From sequence record MK482688.1: a stretch of DNA of 64,000 nucleotides; one strand, written 5' to 3'. Each line of letters begins with the position of its first letter. Positions within the stretch are counted from its first letter, which is position 1. Positions 9,649 to 50,749 of the stretch are shown here, piece after piece. Source of the DNA: Escherichia phage vB_EcoM_LMP25. The notes under the pieces were generated by a model that saw only the letters and a program-made list of their open reading frames with translations, was not told the DNA's origin and made no database searches. Both the position numbers and the translations under genes were made by a program.

Positions 9649-10434
9649 TTAGTTCTTTGCGTCTAAGAAGGTAACTTCTGGTGAAGAGAAAACTGTCTCG
9701 ATATCCTCATCAGTTCTTGCATAGATATAAGTATCTGCATCACTGCCAAATGTTACTGCAATCCTGTGATTGCTCTTCGACAGGTGGGTAACTAGAGCGT
9801 TACTTAGAGACATCTTTTCAACCGGAGGGTTACTTTGATGTATCTTACCTTTTCTTCGTCTGAAGAGGGTAACTGCGTTATCTGTGAACACTGCTACACC
9901 TGCAAAGTATTCTGGTTCACAGTAGTTCTTCCAACCTGAGCGTAACTTGTGGTACATCTCTCCTTCGTAGACATAAAGATACACATCTACACTCTTCATC
10001 ACCTGATTAATGATAACTGTGACGGCTTGAGGGTCTAGTCCACCGATACCTGCACCAATCATAGGTAACCCAACTTTCTTCAACTGATTGACTTCACAGT
10101 ATCTGTTAAGTTGTTTCAAAGATGACTCTAAAGCACTGTATCGGGCATCTTTACCAGTCTTAAGCTGAGTGTAAAGGTTAGCTATACGGCCTTGTTCTAA
10201 ACGTGCTACAGAGAAATTACCCAGTAGATTTTCACAGGGTTTGTGACCTATACCACCTGCATAGAGGTAAACTTCTGTATCGGTCTCATATGCTTTTGGG
10301 TAAAGTTTAGAAATCTTGTCAGCGATACCTGCACCCATTAAATTCATACAGTTGCAACCGTGACCAATGATGTCAAACTTACCTTTATCAAATGCTGCAA
10401 AGATATCGCCATTGATGATTTTTACAATACCCAT
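9649..10434 (-). CDS. macro-domain-like protein (putative ADP-ribose binding/processing) with unknown C-terminal domain
   Basis: N-terminal GDIF..DIIGHGCNCMNLMGAGIADKI and GLPMIGAGIGGLD resemble macro-domain Gly-rich motifs (from memory). Confidence 0.45.
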   Translation of the reverse strand: MGIVKIINGDIFAAFDKGKFDIIGHGCNCMNLMGAGIADKISKLYPKAYETDTEVYLYAGGIGHKPCENLLGNFSVARLEQGRIANLYTQLKTGKDARYSALESSLKQLNRYCEVNQLKKVGLPMIGAGIGGLDPQAVTVIINQVMKSVDVYLYVYEGEMYHKLRSGWKNYCEPEYFAGVAVFTDNAVTLFRRRKGKIHQSNPPVEKMSLSNALVTHLSKSNHRIAVTFGSDADTYIYARTDEDIETVFSSPEVTFLDAKN

Positions 10435-10635
10435 TTAACATCTCTCCCAAGATTCTTTATCTTCTGAAGGTTTTACACGTTGCCCTTCGTGGTCTACCCA
10501 GATGCACCCACAACCTTCACAGATTACTGGCATTGCGTAGCCAGCTTTAAAGTCATCTTCAGTGATAAGACCTTTTAAGTCACCTGTATCACGTCCGAAC
10601 ATTTCGATAGAACAATCTTTACAGAAGTCAGCCAT
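10435..10635 (-). CDS. small zinc-ribbon protein
   Basis: CKDC...CEGCGC cysteine pairs; ATG at 10635 (track start 10713 is further upstream). Confidence 0.4.
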   Translation of the reverse strand: MADFCKDCSIEMFGRDTGDLKGLITEDDFKAGYAMPVICEGCGCIWVDHEGQRVKPSEDKESWERC

Positions 10636-10855
10636 GAATAATTGCCTCTTGAATGATGATACCTTTACCACAACGACTTTTAAAGTCTTCCAATGGTTCA
10701 GAGATGAAGCCACGTAAGCAGTCAGTGAATACTAAGTTCTTCCTGTAAGCTATCACATCATTTGCTGTAAATGGGATGACCTCATTTCGTCCAATGAACA
10801 CTGCTGACCTGATAAGCTTTCGTGTCTTTTTATCTCTGGCTAGTATTACTTTCAT
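10628..10855 (-). CDS. hypothetical protein
   Basis: 75 aa, ATG verified. Confidence 0.45.
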   Translation of the reverse strand: MKVILARDKKTRKLIRSAVFIGRNEVIPFTANDVIAYRKNLVFTDCLRGFISEPLEDFKSRCGKGIIIQEAIIHG

Positions 10856-11156
10856 AGTTTACCTTCTCAGTTAGCTCATATAAATCAACATGCTCAATAC
10901 TATCAATGTTGATATCAATCTTTTTGAAGCGTTCTATCACTTCGTTGTCAGTCATCCATATCAGACACCAATGATTCTGAATGGATTCTTCAAGAAGGTC
11001 AACACAATCTTTAAAAGTTTTTGTGTCACTTCTTGTTCCGACCACTGCAATTGTTCCATATAGCCACTTACCATTGCCGTAAGTTACTTGTGCTACGCCA
11101 ACTTCTTTATCTTTCTCGTAGTAAACGGCTACAAAGTCTCTTCCATTAATCTGCAT
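10830..11156 (-). CDS. hypothetical protein
   Basis: 108 aa, ATG verified. Confidence 0.5.
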   Translation of the reverse strand: MQINGRDFVAVYYEKDKEVGVAQVTYGNGKWLYGTIAVVGTRSDTKTFKDCVDLLEESIQNHWCLIWMTDNEVIERFKKIDINIDSIEHVDLYELTEKVNYESNTSQR

Positions 11157-11158
11157 AG

Positions 11159-11428
11159 TTACTTCCTCGTTTTAAGAACTGCTAAGATTTCTTTAGAATC
11201 TGGTAAGAACCATGTGTAGTGATTCTCTTTGATTTCTGGATGAGTGTCAACCTTTATTTTGCAATCTTTACCAACATGCTTAAGCTGTGCTGTGACACCT
11301 TGCATAAAGATATGACACATCACATTATCCATAATGGTTGGTAAGAAATCGATTCGCATATAAGTTTCTTTTGGTCGTGGCAACAGTAAGTAACCTTCTA
11401 CATAGAAAGTGTCTTGATTCTCTGTCAT
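11159..11428 (-). CDS. hypothetical protein
   Basis: 89 aa, ATGA overlap with upstream gene. Confidence 0.5.
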   Translation of the reverse strand: MTENQDTFYVEGYLLLPRPKETYMRIDFLPTIMDNVMCHIFMQGVTAQLKHVGKDCKIKVDTHPEIKENHYTWFLPDSKEILAVLKTRK

Positions 11429-11694
11429 TGCTGCTTATTCCCTAATAAAATCATGTCAATAAGGTTATTAGCTTTAATTGTACACTGGTAAAAGCCGTCA
11501 CGGTAGAACTCAAGTGCTGCTGCTACATCACTGCCTGTGTTGCCTTTGATGATATACCGTGATTCTTCTTGAGTGTACTTATCACTCTCACTTACTTGGG
11601 AGTTTTTGAATGTACTGTTCACTTTGTTCGTTGAACATCCTGACATAATTATCAGTAACACAAACATTATAAAACTCTGGCTTAGTTTTTTCAT
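11425..11694 (-). CDS. putative lipoprotein (possible o-spanin-like)
   Basis: Signal peptide with lipobox LIIMSG-C; start lies 107 nt inside the 3' end of the upstream membrane-protein gene in another frame. Confidence 0.45.
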   Translation of the reverse strand: MKKLSQSFIMFVLLIIMSGCSTNKVNSTFKNSQVSESDKYTQEESRYIIKGNTGSDVAAALEFYRDGFYQCTIKANNLIDMILLGNKQQ

Positions 11695-11935
11695 ATGTTA
11701 GTACCTCTTTTGTGTGCTTATTCTTAGCAAGCACATCTTTCAAATCATTTTTGTAATTGGCGCTCAGTGTAACTAATCCTTCCTGATAAGCATCTTTAGC
11801 AACACTTATGAGCTTTTGATTGTTTAGCTCAGTTTCAGCAACTTGGTAGTCTCTGTAAGAGTACCCTCCCCAGACACCCGCCCCAACTAAGAAAACAATT
11901 ATGAAAGTAGCTTGACAGAACTCTTTAAATGTCAT
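11588..11935 (-). CDS. type II membrane protein (possible i-spanin-like)
   Basis: N-terminal TM FIIVFLVGAGVWGG then helical domain; overlapped by lipoprotein gene. Confidence 0.45.
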   Translation of the reverse strand: MTFKEFCQATFIIVFLVGAGVWGGYSYRDYQVAETELNNQKLISVAKDAYQEGLVTLSANYKNDLKDVLAKNKHTKEVLTYEKTKPEFYNVCVTDNYVRMFNEQSEQYIQKLPSK

Positions 11936-11955
11936 TTAACAATCTCCTGAAATGA

Positions 11956-11980
11956 AAAAGGCTCCCGAAGGAGCCTGTAT
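11956..11980 (-). terminator. rho-independent terminator
   Basis: On - strand AGGCTCC-UUCG-GGAGCCT followed by TTTTTCATTT. Confidence 0.6.
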
Positions 11981-11987
11981 CTTAACC

Positions 11988-12452
11988 TTAACCGAGGACT
12001 TTAGCAAGGATATTCGCAGCCATCGAAGAAGCTTTTGCAGCAGCAACTACGCCAGCTTTGACAGTGCTATCCTTAATAGCAGATACCGTTGCAGCATCAG
12101 TAAAGAGATAAGTGATTGTTTTGGAACCACTTGTAAAGGAAAGCATAAGAGTAGTTTCCAGATTGAAAGAGCGATACGGAGCACCTTCTTTAACGATACC
12201 TTCAGCACCTAACTCTGAAGCCTTACCCATATCATAGATAGTCATCAGGTTTTCTTTGTGTGCAGTCGTTGAACCAACACCTTTTACGTGCTTCTTAACG
12301 TTCAACAATGCACGATATTCACGAATGCTGCCATCAGCTTTTACATTAACAGCACGAAAAATTTTACCTTCAAAGTTACCTTGAATCATTTTACGAACTA
12401 CTGCGGATTTGTTTACCGTATCGTCCAGTGCTACCGTAATGATATTGTTCAT
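11988..12452 (-). CDS. hypothetical protein
   Basis: 154 aa; strong terminator immediately downstream. Confidence 0.5.
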   Translation of the reverse strand: MNNIITVALDDTVNKSAVVRKMIQGNFEGKIFRAVNVKADGSIREYRALLNVKKHVKGVGSTTAHKENLMTIYDMGKASELGAEGIVKEGAPYRSFNLETTLMLSFTSGSKTITYLFTDAATVSAIKDSTVKAGVVAAAKASSMAANILAKVLG

Positions 12453-12462
12453 AAGTTTTCTC

Positions 12463-13158
12463 TCAATGTTTAACTAACATGGTTTTAATGTGTGGAAGGA
12501 TTCTGTTCACCTTTTGCACATTCTTCTCTGTGTCTTCTATAAAACATACTATATTAAAGTAAGGCAGAATGCAAGACTGAATCATCCTCACTTTCAAACT
12601 TTCTGCACTTATAGAGTTAGTCCCAAAACCACGCATAAAAAGCATGTAATCATGCTCTATGTAATGCCTTAAAAACATCTCAGTAGGTATTCTCTGAGAT
12701 TCACCTCTCGCTGTCAAGAGTCCAATGGCGGCATGATTAGCAATTGCATCAATAATATTGAAAACATACGTTGGTTTTGCTCTTACAGAGTCAAGCAAAT
12801 TAGTGTACTGTGAAAATGACCCATCAATCAATTCCGTTGAGTAATCTTCGTGATTAAAATTTGTAAGAACACCATCAATGTCTGCTAAGATAAGGTTACC
12901 TTTTTCTACAAGGTCTTTATTGACTATGACTAAGCTGTCACGCCTTACACCTATAGTTTGTCCAGTCTCTTTATCTACAACATTCACAATTGTCTCTAAT
13001 GTGTGGAACTCTTCGAGTGAACATACAACTTCTCTTGCGGTATCTTCAAAATCCCTACACTGTTCTGGAGTCCATACACAGGAATCAAGACCTAACTCAT
13101 GAGGATGTAAGTCATAAGCATGACACAGTACTTCATCAGACTTTCTTAATTTTTTCAT
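12463..13158 (-). CDS. HAD-superfamily phosphatase / nucleotidase-like
   Basis: LADIDGVLT matches HAD motif I (DxDG). Confidence 0.5.
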   Translation of the reverse strand: MKKLRKSDEVLCHAYDLHPHELGLDSCVWTPEQCRDFEDTAREVVCSLEEFHTLETIVNVVDKETGQTIGVRRDSLVIVNKDLVEKGNLILADIDGVLTNFNHEDYSTELIDGSFSQYTNLLDSVRAKPTYVFNIIDAIANHAAIGLLTARGESQRIPTEMFLRHYIEHDYMLFMRGFGTNSISAESLKVRMIQSCILPYFNIVCFIEDTEKNVQKVNRILPHIKTMLVKH

Positions 13159-13684
13159 GATTTACCTTAGAAATGTTTGTTGCAAATTCACATTGAGCAA
13201 TAACTTTCATGTTGTTATAGACATCTTGAGAATATTTCTTAGCTTTAGGGATTCTGTACGAATACCCAGCATTATATGATGCTAAAACTTTTTGTAAAGT
13301 TTTCTTTGACTTTGGCTGACCATGCACCTTTGTCCAAAATTCAAGTTCTTTGTGCGTTTCCTTTGCAGCATAGTCAAAGTCTCTTAAGAGTTTCTTTTTA
13401 GCCACATTAGGACTAATTTTGTTACGCTTTACAACAGTCTTCAAGTGATTCTGGAAAATACCATAATCATGTGTCTTTTTATTCTCTACCTTCAGACCTA
13501 ACTCTGACTCTTGTAAGGCTATAGCAGCTAGAGTGATACCCCAACCTTTACCCATGTTATTCTCACCATACTGGTAAGCTTTTAACATGTTTACTTTTTG
13601 GCTAATTGATAGCTCTGGGCAGTCAACTGCATAAGATAAGTGTGCTGTAAACATTAAGCACAAACCTAGAATCAATTTCTTCAT
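13136..13684 (-). CDS. secreted lytic transglycosylase (SLT domain)
   Basis: Cleavable signal peptide, catalytic-region ALQESELG, and ASYNAGYSY (AYNAG-like) motif. Confidence 0.55.
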   Translation of the reverse strand: MKKLILGLCLMFTAHLSYAVDCPELSISQKVNMLKAYQYGENNMGKGWGITLAAIALQESELGLKVENKKTHDYGIFQNHLKTVVKRNKISPNVAKKKLLRDFDYAAKETHKELEFWTKVHGQPKSKKTLQKVLASYNAGYSYRIPKAKKYSQDVYNNMKVIAQCEFATNISKVNHEKIKKV

Positions 13685-13747
13685 TGGTTCTCCTGTTTAG
13701 TTTATCGTGACAACAATTATACAGCACTCTGCACAAAATACAAATAA

Positions 13748-13778
13748 AAAAGGCCGCCGAAGCAGCCTTTTAAGAAAT
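13748..13778 (-). terminator. rho-independent terminator
   Basis: On - strand GGCTGC-UUCG-GCGGCC followed by TTTTTTATTT. Confidence 0.5.
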
Positions 13779-13784
13779 TACTTA

Positions 13785-14894
13785 TTAGATTTCACGTTTA
13801 CGTTGAGAGATGAGTTCACCAGCAGTGCCAACGATGACATGCAAAGCTTCAGTCTTACCGTCCCATGCTTCCAGCACTTTACGTTGATTATCAACGATTG
13901 CTGCAACTTCATAACGAGAGGAACGCATCTTCATATCGTTGTAATCAGTTGGAACAGATACAACATCTCGTGGATGTACGCGAACCTTCAGGATTGTATC
14001 ACCTGAGAAGCAACGAACATAATCCCAAGCACCAACATGAAGACCTTGAGAGCAAGTTACGTTACGGTTATTATCAACCATCCAACGTGGCATTTCTACA
14101 ATGTTACCCAAATCATTAGGCACTTTGTAGGTGTGAGAGTCAACCAGCTTGCCTTCACGAGTAGAGACTTTCTTCCAACCAATGATGTAGCCTTCTTCAT
14201 CAATCTCAACATCAAGGTGAGATACAAATCCCCAAAGTTGTTCTACAGAATCTTTAGATGGGTTTTCCATCAGTTTTTCGAAGAACATTACAAGTCGTTC
14301 AAAACCTTTATCGCCAGTTTTCATCATGTGAAGAATACGGTCAACCAGAGTAGAACGCATCTCAACAGCACCGTAGAATAGCTTGTCACCTTTGATTGTG
14401 ATAGCACCCTGAGTGAAGTTTTCGATAGACTTACGAATGTTCATCAGTTCAAAGGCTTTCTTAAACTCACCTTTCACAACATGAACTACAATCTCTTGAT
14501 AGTTCGGATGAGTAGATTCAACAATTTCAGACTCTGAACCGTAAGTCATAATTACAGAGTCACCAGTAATCATGTACTCAATCTTGTCATCTTTCTGCAT
14601 AGCTTCATGCAGTTTATTTACTGGAGCTTTCTGTACAGCCTCTTTAACAACCTTTTCAACTGGTTTGCCAGTTTTCTTTTTAACTGACTTAGCAACTTGC
14701 TTTAGGGTCTTCTTAGCTGGCTTAGAAGTTGCCTTTTTCTTACCTTTTAAGGTTGCTTCATGACGCTCTACAGCACGACCAACTGAACGGGTTGAAGTAT
14801 TGAACTTCTGTGCGATAGCTGTTTTAGTCAGCTTACCTTCTTTAACCAGTTCGTAAATTTCTGCGTCAATCTGTGCTTTAGTTTTAGTAGTCAT
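13785..14894 (-). CDS. rIIB: rIIB-like protein (putative)
   Basis: Immediately downstream of rIIA-like gene on same strand, 369 aa with N-terminal HTH-like and Lys-rich linker; assignment by synteny only. Confidence 0.4.
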   Translation of the reverse strand: MTTKTKAQIDAEIYELVKEGKLTKTAIAQKFNTSTRSVGRAVERHEATLKGKKKATSKPAKKTLKQVAKSVKKKTGKPVEKVVKEAVQKAPVNKLHEAMQKDDKIEYMITGDSVIMTYGSESEIVESTHPNYQEIVVHVVKGEFKKAFELMNIRKSIENFTQGAITIKGDKLFYGAVEMRSTLVDRILHMMKTGDKGFERLVMFFEKLMENPSKDSVEQLWGFVSHLDVEIDEEGYIIGWKKVSTREGKLVDSHTYKVPNDLGNIVEMPRWMVDNNRNVTCSQGLHVGAWDYVRCFSGDTILKVRVHPRDVVSVPTDYNDMKMRSSRYEVAAIVDNQRKVLEAWDGKTEALHVIVGTAGELISQRKREI

Positions 14895-42541: not shown

Positions 42542-42756
42542 CACTTGCAGACGTTATTCAGCAACTTCATGATAACTGCTATACTCCAGAGCTGATTCAG
42601 GAGATGTGCATTGTAGTCATGCCTAGTAGGTTCGTAAAAACCTTTAACAGCGACACTTTAAGGTCTGCACACATTCTTATTGTTGAAGGTAAGATTGCAA
42701 AAGACCGTACTGGAGTACTCAAAGGTGAACGTATTGATATTCTGGAGTTGCTATGA
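42538..42756 (+). CDS. hypothetical protein
   Basis: ATGA overlap; GGAG upstream; track start 42523 is TTG. Confidence 0.45.
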   Translation: MTLADVIQQLHDNCYTPELIQEMCIVVMPSRFVKTFNSDTLRSAHILIVEGKIAKDRTGVLKGERIDILELL

Positions 42757-43022
42757 AGAAAATGTACAGTCTCTGGGGAAGTATTATGTGGAAAGCAGTA
42801 ATTGCGCTTGGTGTTGTTTTTCTATCTGGCTGCAACCCTTCTTATGAAGATAAAAATGCTTCTTACAGTCTCCCACCAGAGATGCAAGATTGCAGAGTAT
42901 ACAAGTTACATGGTGATGCTATAAGCAGGGATATTGTTGTTGTCAGATGCCCAAACTCTCAAACAACAACATCTTATAGCTATGGCAAAAATGGTCAATC
43001 ACATACTACGGTTATTGAGTGA
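42753..43022 (+). CDS. putative lipoprotein
   Basis: Signal peptide ending in lipobox FLSG-C; GGAG upstream. Confidence 0.5.
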   Translation: MKKMYSLWGSIMWKAVIALGVVFLSGCNPSYEDKNASYSLPPEMQDCRVYKLHGDAISRDIVVVRCPNSQTTTSYSYGKNGQSHTTVIE

Positions 43023-50149: not shown

Positions 50150-50190
50150 AAAAAAGGCTCCCGTCAAAAGGAGCCTTAAAATTTTATTTT
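50150..50190. terminator. bidirectional rho-independent terminator
   Basis: GGCTCC-cgtcaaaa-GGAGCC with A-run before and T-run after, between convergent genes. Confidence 0.6.
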
Positions 50191-50555
50191 TCAGTATTCT
50201 TTGTGTTCTTCTCAGTAATAGCTTGGAGGGCTGATACTGATTGAGCCAGATTATTTACACTGTCAGAGAATTTATCAAGAGTTTTGGTAAGTTTTGCGTT
50301 TTCGCCCTTAACATTCTCTAACTGAACTTTCTGGTTCTCCATCCCTAGCTGAATCAATCTCATGTCAGACTGTAAATCACGAATAGCTGAATAGTTACTT
50401 TTGGAATAATTATCTAGCTGCTGTAACTTTGTTGTGACAGACACTTCTTGTTTACCACTTGAAACTTGCATGGTGGTATACATCCCAATAACACTAAAAA
50501 TACCAACTACAATTGCACCAATATTATTTTTAAAAGCTTCCTCTAGCCACTTCAT
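50184..50555 (-). CDS. membrane protein with coiled-coil domain (possible lysis-associated)
   Basis: N-terminal TM GAIVVGIFSVIGMY then coiled coil. Confidence 0.45.
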   Translation of the reverse strand: MKWLEEAFKNNIGAIVVGIFSVIGMYTTMQVSSGKQEVSVTTKLQQLDNYSKSNYSAIRDLQSDMRLIQLGMENQKVQLENVKGENAKLTKTLDKFSDSVNNLAQSVSALQAITEKNTKNTEK

Positions 50556-50749
50556 TTATTCTCCCCCTTAAAAGCTTTTTCTAAGTTATCTACGAACTCA
50601 TCATCAATAGGTGTGTCTGTTTTACTCGCAAGGTATCTTGCAAGCCTAAAGAACACTTTCTCAATCATGTATTCACTTAGAAGGGATAAAATGAGTTTCC
50701 AGAAGAAGCTACCTAGATTTTTTAGAAGAATTGCTAGGATTGTAGGCAT
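50552..50749 (-). CDS. small membrane protein (possible holin-like)
   Basis: 65 aa, one hydrophobic helix, charged C-terminus. Confidence 0.35.
   Translation of the reverse strand: MPTILAILLKNLGSFFWKLILSLLSEYMIEKVFFRLARYLASKTDTPIDDEFVDNLEKAFKGENK

What the first reader, a model, noticed from the sequence alone, without database searches (positions are those of the whole stretch)
11425..13684. Possible lysis module: overlapping membrane-protein/lipoprotein pair near a secreted lytic transglycosylase
Gene 11588..11935 encodes a type II membrane protein with a helical periplasmic domain. The lipoprotein gene 11425..11694 starts 107 nt inside its 3' end in another frame, an architecture typical of overlapped i-spanin/o-spanin pairs. 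About 1.5 kb upstream is an SLT-domain protein with a cleavable signal peptide. The mature lipoprotein is not Pro-rich, so the spanin call is tentative.
Basis: inference. Interest (0 to 1): 0.45.

Follow-up and report, generated by a model that had tools for sequence, protein, structure and literature searches.

The report
Known Felix O1-type spanin gene pair
The overlapping membrane-protein and lipoprotein genes are the already catalogued spanin pair of Felix O1-like phages, which breaks the host outer membrane at the end of infection. The nearby secreted cell-wall enzyme is a separate, widely conserved phage gene of unknown role, not part of a lysis module.

Summary
The window is a Felixounavirus, 100% identical to Escherichia phages LMP34 and LMP33. 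The ORFs are exactly as described:
- a 115-aa N-terminally anchored membrane protein at 11588..11935(-);
- an 89-aa lipoprotein at 11425..11694(-), overlapping it by 107 nt in the +1 frame.

The pair is a two-component spanin and is already known. SpaninDB (Kongari 2018) lists Felix O1 p014/p015 with the same lengths, overlap and lipobox, and many GenBank records annotate i-/o-spanin.

My checks agree:
- PHROG Rz-like spanin, E=1e-41;
- purifying selection in both frames;
- the same architecture in 11 loci from at least five phage lineages;
- distant homologs placed directly after holin and endolysin in P2/HP1-like phages and prophages.

The lack of proline is a quirk of the Felixounavirus and Mooglevirus lineage.

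The "lysis module" is not supported. The SLT-like protein is a real secreted GH23 enzyme and a homolog of T4 vs.1, found in more than 2100 phage records. It is separated from the spanins by two genes and a conserved terminator. The phage's endolysin (a GH24 lysozyme) and putative holin lie elsewhere, and published work says Felix O1-like lysis genes are scattered.

Verdict: ordinary and already annotated, so low interest.

The parts
11588..11935 (-). i-spanin gene: 115 aa, an inner-membrane protein with an N-terminal TMD at residues 6-24, a helical periplasmic domain, and conserved Cys92 in the motif KPxFxNVCxTDxYVRxFNE
   Evidence: ORF and features. PHROG 1152 'Rz-like spanin', E=1e-41. Differs at 2 of 115 residues from Felix O1 p014 in SpaninDB. 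Family alignments A5 and A7. Secondary structure.
11425..11694 (-). o-spanin gene: 89 aa, an outer-membrane lipoprotein precursor with lipobox IIMSG|C20, Ser at +2, conserved Cys71 and no Pro; the mature protein is 70 aa
   Evidence: ORF and features. phrog_4180, E=3e-51, with a weak hit to phrog_456 'Rz-like spanin'. Differs at 1 of 89 residues from Felix O1 p015 in SpaninDB. Purifying selection in its own frame.
11588..11694 (-). 107-nt dual-coding overlap: the i-spanin C-terminus and the o-spanin signal peptide plus lipobox, in the +1 register
   Evidence: Divergence from Moogle is 2.4-3 times lower than in the flanks. SpaninDB gives the same 107-nt overlap for Felix O1, FO1a, UAB_Phi87 and FSL SP-010.
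11959..11976 (-). Intrinsic-terminator-like hairpin (AGGCTCCTTCGGGAGCCT plus a T run), ending about 24 nt before the i-spanin ATG. It separates the spanins from the SLT-PNK-ORF154 unit.
   Evidence: Scan and sequence. Also predicted or annotated in ASO1A, phiEa21-4 and Moogle.
13136..13684 (-). Secreted GH23 (SLT/goose-lysozyme fold) protein, 182 aa, a homolog of T4 vs.1. It is a neighbour of the spanins, not part of their unit.
   Evidence: Pfam SLT E=1.2e-3, below the gathering score. Invariant E59-S60, FQ and SYNxGY across the family (positions there are offset by one). Best solved relative is EtgA, E=3.3e-5. Model pLDDT 85, with GH23 lysozymes and lytic transglycosylases as structural neighbours. 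T4-group vs.1 homolog.
13748..13771 (-). Intrinsic-terminator-like hairpin between rIIB and the SLT-like gene
50184..50555 (-). Homolog of the 'putative holin' of Felix O1-like phages: 123 aa with one N-terminal TMD, about 38 kb from the spanins
   Evidence: 99% identical to Andreotti gp64, annotated 'holin'. phrog_4038 has no known function, so the holin call rests on topology only.

Best explanation
Genes 11588..11935(-) and 11425..11694(-) encode the two subunits of a two-component spanin of the overlapped class.

Proposed mechanism:
- The 115-aa subunit is anchored in the inner membrane by its N-terminal helix and projects a mostly helical domain into the periplasm.
- The 89-aa subunit is processed at its lipobox, lipidated at Cys20 and sorted to the inner leaflet of the outer membrane (Ser at +2).
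- The two C-terminal regions bind each other, so the complex spans the periplasm through the cell-wall meshwork.
- The single periplasmic cysteines (C92 and C71) probably form homodimer disulfides.
- Once the holin and the separate GH24 endolysin have destroyed the peptidoglycan, the freed complexes fuse or disrupt the outer membrane and complete lysis.

What is shown here: gene structure, targeting signals, selection in both frames, family membership, and cassette context in relatives. What is inferred: the membrane-fusion step, the disulfides and the subunit contact. These come from the lambda Rz/Rz1 and T4 PseT.3/PseT.2 models (established knowledge; partly in PMC6139136).

The SLT-like gene at 13136..13684 is an independent vs.1-type secreted GH23 enzyme of unknown role. 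It is not the endolysin of a local module.
For: - The window is a Felixounavirus, 100% identical to LMP34 and LMP33.
- Relatives annotate the same two genes as i-/o-spanin or Rz-like spanin.
- SpaninDB lists Felix O1 p014/p015 with the same lengths (115 and 89 aa), 107-nt overlap, Shine-Dalgarno sequences, lipobox and one periplasmic Cys each.
- The i-spanin matches PHROG 1152 'Rz-like spanin', E=1e-41.
- All 11 loci from Felixounavirus, Mooglevirus, Kolesnikvirus, Arno18, two Peduoviridae, a Gordonclarkvirinae podophage and a Proteus Gorganvirus share one architecture. Each has an N-terminal TMD protein with one Cys in an N-x-C motif, plus a lipoprotein with Ser at +2 and a conserved C-terminal Cys, overlapping by 89-191 nt, always in the +1 frame.
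- Distant homologs sit in canonical lysis cassettes: holin-endolysin-pair in Yersinia phage YenM_324 and Salmonella phage SI7; endolysin-pair in Proteus phage 2207-N35; Phage_holin_3_2 then Peptidase_M15_4 then the homolog in Proteus and Yersinia prophages.
- In the Proteus prophage the overlapping lipoprotein passes Pfam LysC (PF23793) at 32.5 bits against a cut-off of 27.
- Both frames are under selection.
- Felix O1 RT-PCR puts ORF 6 in the same 25-min class as the lysin gp35. ORF 6 is the i-spanin only if numbering is collinear from gene 1 = rIIA, which is my inference.
Against: - I found no experiment on any member of this sequence family; every spanin label is a prediction.
- The pair lies in a rII / nucleotide-metabolism region, far from the holin candidate and the endolysin.
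- It lies behind a terminator with no obvious promoter of its own.
- SpaninDB predicts no coiled coil in the i-spanin (file 4), and the 3-D model is of low confidence.
- The o-spanin has no proline, unlike lambda Rz1.
- The window lipoprotein itself does not hit Pfam LysC.
- There is no detectable homology to the experimentally tested T4 pair and only weak, collinear profile similarity to P2 LysB/LysC (E about 0.002, probability about 16%).
Confidence: 0.85

Rival explanations
1. The region is a local lysis module. The secreted SLT-like enzyme would be the muralytic partner (a Sec-exported endolysin) acting together with the adjacent spanins.
For: The protein has a signal peptide, intact GH23 catalytic motifs and a confident GH23 fold. 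Some records call it 'putative lysin'. It lies 1.2 kb upstream on the same strand, and this synteny is kept in Moogle. In Felix O1, ORF 3 and ORF 6 peak at the same time point, if numbering is collinear.
Against: - Two unrelated genes and a conserved terminator separate it from the spanins.
- It belongs to the vs.1 family, found in more than 2100 phage records including T4-like and ViI-like phages. In T4 it is not next to the spanins, and T4 uses a different gene as its endolysin (established knowledge).
- This phage group has a canonical GH24 endolysin elsewhere.
- In every non-Ounavirinae relative the spanin pair is accompanied by a different endolysin and no vs.1-like gene.
- The literature says lysis genes here are scattered.
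Confidence: 0.05
2. The pair has a non-lysis envelope function, for example a superinfection-exclusion or receptor-masking lipoprotein with a membrane partner, expressed with the early or middle genes.
For: It is located among rIIA/rIIB, a polynucleotide kinase and macro-domain phosphatase genes rather than late genes. Small phage lipoproteins with exclusion roles are known (established knowledge: T5 Llp, Cor). No experiment exists on this family.
Against: Both partners co-occur and overlap in five unrelated phage backbones. In P2/HP1-like phages and prophages they occupy the exact slot after holin and endolysin. One family member passes Pfam LysC. T4's proven spanins are likewise encoded in an early region beside pseT.
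Confidence: 0.07
3. The 89-codon lipoprotein ORF is a chance alternate-frame ORF and not a gene.
For: Lipobox-type ORFs occur at about 1 per 64 kb in random sequence. Several records do not annotate it, or start it at Met17.
Against: 53 of its 89 codons lie outside the overlap, in otherwise non-coding DNA. Substitutions there are 70% synonymous and at third positions in its frame. It has its own AAGAGG ribosome-binding site. It is conserved down to 28-36% identity with invariant C20, S21 and C71.
Confidence: 0.01

Closest known systems
Felix O1 p014/p015 (SpaninDB, overlapped class; also FO1a, UAB_Phi87, FSL SP-010/012, Moogle gp122/gp121)
   Same: These are the same genes. Identity is 98-100% for the Felixounavirus entries (Moogle 77% and 82%), with the same lengths, 107-nt overlap, ribosome-binding sites, lipobox and Cys count.
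   Different: The window's proteins differ from Felix O1 at two residues in the i-spanin and one in the o-spanin signal peptide (IIMSG versus ITMSG).
P2 LysB/LysC (overlapped spanin pair; Pfam PF23793 LysC)
   Same: The architecture is the same: a TMD protein plus a +1-frame overlapping lipoprotein, with collinear conserved G-x-D...C-A and E-K...N...F/Y motifs. The link is transitive: the window o-spanin resembles those of YenM_324 and the Proteus prophage, and the latter passes Pfam LysC.
   Different: BLASTP finds no similarity, and profile comparison is only weak. The window protein does not hit PF23793. P2's pair lies in a lysis cassette; this one does not.
Lambda Rz/Rz1
   Same: Same predicted topology and the same presumed job of outer-membrane disruption after peptidoglycan degradation, with periplasmic Cys in both subunits.
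   Different: Rz1 is fully embedded in Rz and has a penta-proline stretch. Here the genes only overlap, and the o-spanin has no Pro and a predicted C-terminal helix-like region. There is no sequence similarity.
T4 PseT.3/PseT.2
   Same: Subunit sizes are similar (117 and 99 aa). The o-spanin has no Pro-rich region. The genes lie outside any lysis cassette, beside a polynucleotide kinase gene in an early region.
   Different: The T4 genes are of the separated class, with only a 4-nt overlap. Homology is limited to the lipobox. The T4 o-spanin carries both periplasmic Cys and its i-spanin none.
T4 vs.1 and specialised lytic transglycosylases such as EtgA (for the SLT-like protein)
   Same: A small single-domain secreted GH23 protein with the catalytic Glu-Ser and the FQ and YNxG motifs. 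The SLT resemblance of vs.1 was already noted in 2006.
   Different: Identity to the T4-group vs.1 of phage RB6 is about 32%. The Ounavirinae type has an extra co-conserved Cys pair. No secretion-system partner is evident, and the function is unknown.

Membership tests
Two-component spanin (functional class, Summer 2007 / Kongari 2018 criteria) | The i-spanin is a small inner-membrane protein with a single N-terminal TMD and the bulk of the protein in the periplasm | tested here: met
   The only hydrophobic segment is at residues 6-24, and 88-90 residues follow it. Family members have K/R before the TMD.
Two-component spanin (functional class, Summer 2007 / Kongari 2018 criteria) | The i-spanin periplasmic domain is largely alpha-helical, usually with coiled coils | tested here: inconclusive
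   The AF2 model gives helix 3-72, a linker, then helix 95-111, but pLDDT is 63. SpaninDB reports 66% helix and no predicted coiled coil for Felix O1.
Two-component spanin (functional class, Summer 2007 / Kongari 2018 criteria) | The o-spanin is a small lipoprotein with a signal peptidase II lipobox and no Asp at +2 (outer-membrane sorting) | tested here: met
   MKKLSQSFIMFVLLIIMSG|CS matches a PROSITE-type lipobox rule. C20 and S21 are invariant in the family.
Two-component spanin (functional class, Summer 2007 / Kongari 2018 criteria) | The o-spanin gene is embedded in, overlapping, or immediately after the i-spanin gene | tested here: met
   107-nt overlap in the +1 frame; 89-191 nt in all 11 loci.
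Two-component spanin (functional class, Summer 2007 / Kongari 2018 criteria) | At least one periplasmic Cys for intermolecular disulfides (507 of 528 systems) | tested here: met
   C92 in the i-spanin and C71 in the o-spanin are both invariant. Disulfide formation itself was not tested.
Two-component spanin (functional class, Summer 2007 / Kongari 2018 criteria) | Linkage to holin and endolysin genes (usual but not defining; absent in T4) | tested here: not met
   In this genome the holin candidate is 38 kb away and the endolysin is outside the window. The feature is met in distant homologs.
Two-component spanin (functional class, Summer 2007 / Kongari 2018 criteria) | Loss gives a divalent-cation-dependent lysis block with spherical cells, and the pair complements lambda Rz/Rz1 | not testable with these tools
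   I found no experiment on this family in the literature searches.
PHROG 1152 'Rz-like spanin' | Significant full-length match to the profile | tested here: met
   E=1e-41, covering residues 1-115 of 115.
Pfam PF23793 LysC (Rz1-like lysis protein of P2) | Score at or above the gathering threshold of 27 bits | tested here: not met
   No hit for the window protein. Relatives score 32.5 bits (Proteus prophage), 20.2 (YenM_324) and 15 (SI7). hhalign against P2 LysC gives E=0.0017, probability 16%.
Lambda Rz1-type o-spanin | Proline-rich region or penta-proline stretch | tested here: not met
   There are no Pro in the mature protein. Other members of this family have 1-4.
GH23 / Pfam SLT (PF01464), for ORF 13136..13684 | Pfam score at or above the gathering threshold of 21.3 bits | tested here: not met
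   18.9 bits, E=1.2e-3. More distant homologs carry precomputed PF01464 hits.
GH23 / Pfam SLT (PF01464), for ORF 13136..13684 | Catalytic Glu-Ser with the G-x-x-Q and Y-N-x-G motifs, and a lysozyme-like GH23 fold | tested here: met
   E59, S60, Q78, Y137, N138 and G140 (full-length numbering) are invariant or nearly so. Model pLDDT is 85, and the top structural matches are g-type lysozymes, MltE, MltD, MltF, Slt and phiKZ gp144. The best PDB match of the family profile is EtgA.
Phage endolysin of a holin-endolysin-spanin cassette, for ORF 13136..13684 | It is the phage's dedicated lysis muralytic enzyme, genetically linked to holin and spanins | tested here: not met
   It forms a separate unit bounded by terminators. 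A canonical GH24 endolysin exists elsewhere. The vs.1 family coexists with other endolysins in many phages.

The most novel reading that the evidence does not exclude
The vs.1-type secreted GH23 enzyme, conserved in more than 2100 large virulent phage genomes and never assigned a role, may be a Sec-exported, holin-independent conditioner of the cell wall. It could enlarge peptidoglycan pores in mid-infection so that spanin complexes can assemble across the sacculus, or so that lysis is faster. In that case its conserved placement upstream of the spanins in Ounavirinae would be functional rather than inherited synteny.
Probability: 0.08. Interest if true: 0.5.

Novelty: already known. Interest (0 to 1): 0.1.

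Why it matters
It matters little beyond correct annotation. The pair is in the spanin census and in many GenBank records, and the scattered layout of lysis genes in Felix O1-like phages is published.

Three practical points follow:
- The identical LMP34/LMP33 records label both genes 'hypothetical'.
- Many records and metagenomic gene calls start the o-spanin at Met17, which removes its signal peptide.
- No member of this widespread family (Ounavirinae, phiEco32-like podophages, P2/HP1-like prophages of Proteus and Yersinia) has been tested experimentally. It is a reasonable candidate for studying a proline-free o-spanin.

The vs.1-like secreted GH23 enzyme remains a widespread phage gene without a known function.

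Tried and rejected
- Pfam and NCBIfam on the two spanin proteins gave nothing specific, only lipoprotein-signal matches.
- BLASTP against P2 LysB/LysC found no similarity. Profile comparison with T4 PseT.2/PseT.3 matched only the lipobox or TMD. I therefore do not file the pair under either family.
- phmmer of the SLT-like protein alone against PDB sequences found no hit; only the family profile reached EtgA.
- I checked a second lipobox ORF at 42753..43022(+) as a rival o-spanin or unimolecular spanin. I rejected it because it has no membrane partner and no C-terminal TMD.
- I looked for a promoter between the terminator and the i-spanin start. Only about 24 nt are available and no consensus match lies there, so expression by read-through remains an inference.
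- The word-indexed protein search with the o-spanin returned only close relatives. The distant ones came from tblastn against phage genomes.
- Technical slip: my minus-strand references ending at 11932, 11691 and 13681 removed the initiator Met instead of the stop codon. Residue numbers printed for A1-A3, A6 and A7 and for both structure models are therefore one lower than full-length numbering. The numbers in this report are corrected.
Full report
**Identity of the window.** A 5.4-kb stretch around the finding is 100% identical to Escherichia phages vB_EcoM_LMP34 and LMP33. It is 95-98% identical to many Felixounavirus genomes. The region lies in the long minus-strand block that begins with rIIA and rIIB.

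ORF 11588..11935(-) encodes a 115-aa protein. Its only hydrophobic segment is at residues 6-24, it has an AGGAG ribosome-binding site, and it has one Cys beyond the membrane segment (C92). ORF 11425..11694(-) encodes an 89-aa protein that begins MKKLSQSFIMFVLLIIMSG|CS. That is a lipoprotein signal with Ser at +2. It has its own AAGAGG site, one further Cys (C71) and no proline. The two genes share 107 nt, with the second in the +1 frame. ORF 13136..13684(-) encodes a 182-aa protein with a signal-peptide-like N-terminus and SLT-type motifs.

**Is the pair more than chance?** A lipobox ORF alone is not remarkable: the window has two, and random sequence of the same composition gives about one. 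Conservation decides it.
- The lipoprotein ORF is intact in 319 phage records and the membrane protein in 403.
- Against Citrobacter phage Moogle, the doubly coding 107 nt differ at 10.3% of sites, against 24.9% and 30.7% in the two singly coding parts.
- In the lipoprotein-only part, 35 of 50 differences are synonymous and 35 of 50 are at third positions of its frame.
- Inside the overlap, 8 of 11 changes fall on third positions of the lipoprotein frame.

Both frames are therefore real genes.

**What the pair is.**
- The membrane protein matches PHROG 1152 'Rz-like spanin' over its full length (E=1e-41). The lipoprotein matches an unnamed PHROG strongly and a spanin PHROG weakly.
- Relatives annotate them as i-spanin and o-spanin, or as Rz-like spanin.
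- The spanin census of Kongari et al. 2018 lists Felix O1, FO1a, UAB_Phi87, FSL SP-010/012 and phiEa21-4/phiEa104 in the overlapped class.
- Its supplementary tables give Felix O1 p014 (115 aa) and p015 (89 aa) with the same sequences apart from three residues. They also give the same Shine-Dalgarno sequences, a 107-nt overlap and one periplasmic Cys in each.
- The Moogle genome announcement names an inner- and an outer-membrane spanin. It states that in Felix O1-like phages the lysis proteins are scattered around the genome.

**Independent support from context.** tblastn found relatives of both proteins at 28-36% identity in unrelated phages. I extracted the pairs from 11 loci. Every one has an N-terminal TMD protein of 97-127 aa with a single periplasmic Cys in the motif KPxFxNVCxTDxYVRxFNE. 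Every one also has a lipoprotein with Ser at +2 and a conserved C-terminal Cys in G..L..Y...Y..C...(H)N.LI. The overlap is 89-191 nt, always in the +1 frame.
- In the P2-like phages YenM_324 and SI7 the pair follows holin and endolysin directly.
- In Proteus phage 2207-N35 it follows the endolysin.
- In Proteus and Yersinia prophages the order is Phage_holin_3_2, Peptidase_M15_4, then the i-spanin homolog. In one Proteus locus the overlapping lipoprotein is called and hits Pfam LysC, passing its threshold at 32.5 against 27 bits.

This is the slot spanins occupy in canonical cassettes. It argues against a non-lysis role.

**Relation to tested systems.**
- There is no detectable homology to T4 PseT.3/PseT.2 beyond the signal sequences.
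- BLASTP finds no similarity to P2 LysB/LysC. Profile comparison gives only weak, collinear matches (E about 0.002, probability about 16%).
- The window lipoprotein does not itself hit Pfam LysC.

I therefore treat the link to the LysB/LysC family as transitive and suggestive. Membership in the spanin class rests on architecture, as the class is defined. I found no experiment on any member of this family.

**The proline point.** The T4 o-spanin family also lacks a proline-rich region. Within this family only the Felixounavirus and Mooglevirus proteins have no Pro; the others have one to four.

**Structure.** The i-spanin model has low confidence, as expected for a monomer model of an elongated protein (pLDDT 63). 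It shows one long helix through the membrane and into the periplasm, a linker, and a second helix. SpaninDB reports 66% helix and no predicted coiled coil. 'Helical periplasmic domain' is supported; 'coiled coil' is not shown.

**The SLT-like protein.**
- Its Pfam SLT score is just under threshold, but the family keeps the catalytic Glu-Ser and the FQ and SYNxGY motifs, and every member has a signal peptide.
- The family profile finds EtgA, the specialised lytic transglycosylase of a type III secretion system (E=3.3e-5).
- The AlphaFold model is confident (pLDDT 85, core above 95). Its structural neighbours are goose-type lysozymes and the lytic transglycosylases MltE, MltD, MltF, Slt and phiKZ gp144. 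It is a genuine secreted GH23 enzyme.
- It is the homolog of T4 vs.1. Its family occurs in more than 2100 phage records, including T4-like and ViI-like myophages. The SLT resemblance of vs.1 was noted in 2006.

**Why there is no local lysis module.**
- Between the SLT-like gene and the spanins lie a polynucleotide kinase gene (PHROG E=1.6e-133), an unknown 154-aa gene, and a strong terminator-like hairpin at 11976..11959 that ends about 24 nt before the i-spanin ATG. Another hairpin separates rIIB from the SLT-like gene.
- The same terminators are predicted or annotated in ASO1A, Moogle and phiEa21-4.
- The phage group has a canonical soluble GH24 lysozyme elsewhere: Felix O1 gp35 and Andreotti gp101 (PHROG endolysin E=6e-57). 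It lies outside this window.
- The gene annotated as holin is at 50184..50555.
- The Felix O1 genome paper says holin-lysin cassettes are absent, as in T4.
- Its RT-PCR table puts ORFs 1, 3, 4, 6 and the lysin gp35 in the 25-min class. Mapping ORF 3 to the SLT-like gene and ORF 6 to the i-spanin assumes collinear numbering from gene 1 = rIIA.

**Mechanism.** The most likely mechanism is the standard spanin model. The lipidated o-spanin in the outer membrane and the TMD-anchored i-spanin bind through their C-terminal regions, span the periplasm, and are held by the peptidoglycan mesh until the endolysin removes it. They then disrupt the outer membrane by fusing it with the inner membrane. Gene structure, targeting signals, selection, family and context are shown here. 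The contact, the disulfides and the fusion step are inferred from lambda and T4 work.

**Verdict.** The spanin interpretation is correct but already known. The 'lysis module with a lytic transglycosylase' is not supported. Interest is low.

Noticed in passing
window 11959..11976 (-); also L012 2458..2479 and L013 2457..2476: A strong intrinsic-terminator hairpin sits only about 24 nt before the i-spanin start codon. It is conserved in Felixounavirus, Mooglevirus and Kolesnikvirus, and there is no room for a promoter after it. The spanins may be made only by read-through, which would keep their level low. The Felix O1 paper also says it is unknown how transcription passes its many terminators.
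   Followed up: partly
window 42753..43022 (+): A second lipoprotein ORF: 89 aa, MKKMYSLWGSIMWKAVIALGVVFLSG|CN..., phrog_902 of unknown function. It has no membrane partner and no C-terminal TMD, so it is not a spanin. It could be a superinfection-exclusion or receptor-masking lipoprotein.
   Followed up: partly
window 50184..50555 (-) and 50552..50749 (-): The gene annotated 'holin' in relatives encodes 123 aa with one N-terminal TMD and a long helical tail. It belongs to a PHROG of unknown function, so the holin call is topology-based only. The 65-aa ORF just upstream (phrog_402, unknown function) has a hydrophobic N-terminal region and might be the real holin or an antiholin.
   Followed up: partly
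window 9649..14894 (-) compared with T4 (L010 and L009): Several T4-type accessory genes cluster here: rIIA/rIIB, a vs.1-like GH23 enzyme, a PseT-like polynucleotide kinase and a Tk.4-like macro-domain phosphatase. T4's spanins (pseT.3 and pseT.2), which are not homologous to this pair, also sit beside its polynucleotide kinase gene pseT.
   Followed up: partly
window 13136..13684 (-), residues C22 and C165: The Ounavirinae-type vs.1 homologs share a co-conserved Cys pair near the mature N-terminus and the C-terminus. The T4-type members lack it. It is probably a periplasmic disulfide.
   Followed up: no
window 11425..11694 (-); L002 2026..2247: Many GenBank records and metagenomic gene calls start the o-spanin at Met17 (73 aa), which deletes the signal peptide and leaves only 'MSGC'. 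The identical LMP34 and LMP33 records call both spanin genes 'hypothetical protein'.
   Followed up: yes
hits H32, H41 and H112 (GU169904 Staphylococcus phage SA1; MG065664 and MG065668 Campylobacter phages A132 and A126): Records labelled as Staphylococcus and Campylobacter phages carry copies of these Felix O1-type genes at 95-98% protein identity. They are probably chimeric or mislabelled records.
   Followed up: no
window 11159..11428 (-): The next gene (89 aa, phrog_4391, unknown function) starts at an ATGA that overlaps the o-spanin stop codon, which suggests translational coupling. It is absent from the spanin loci of other phage lineages.
   Followed up: no
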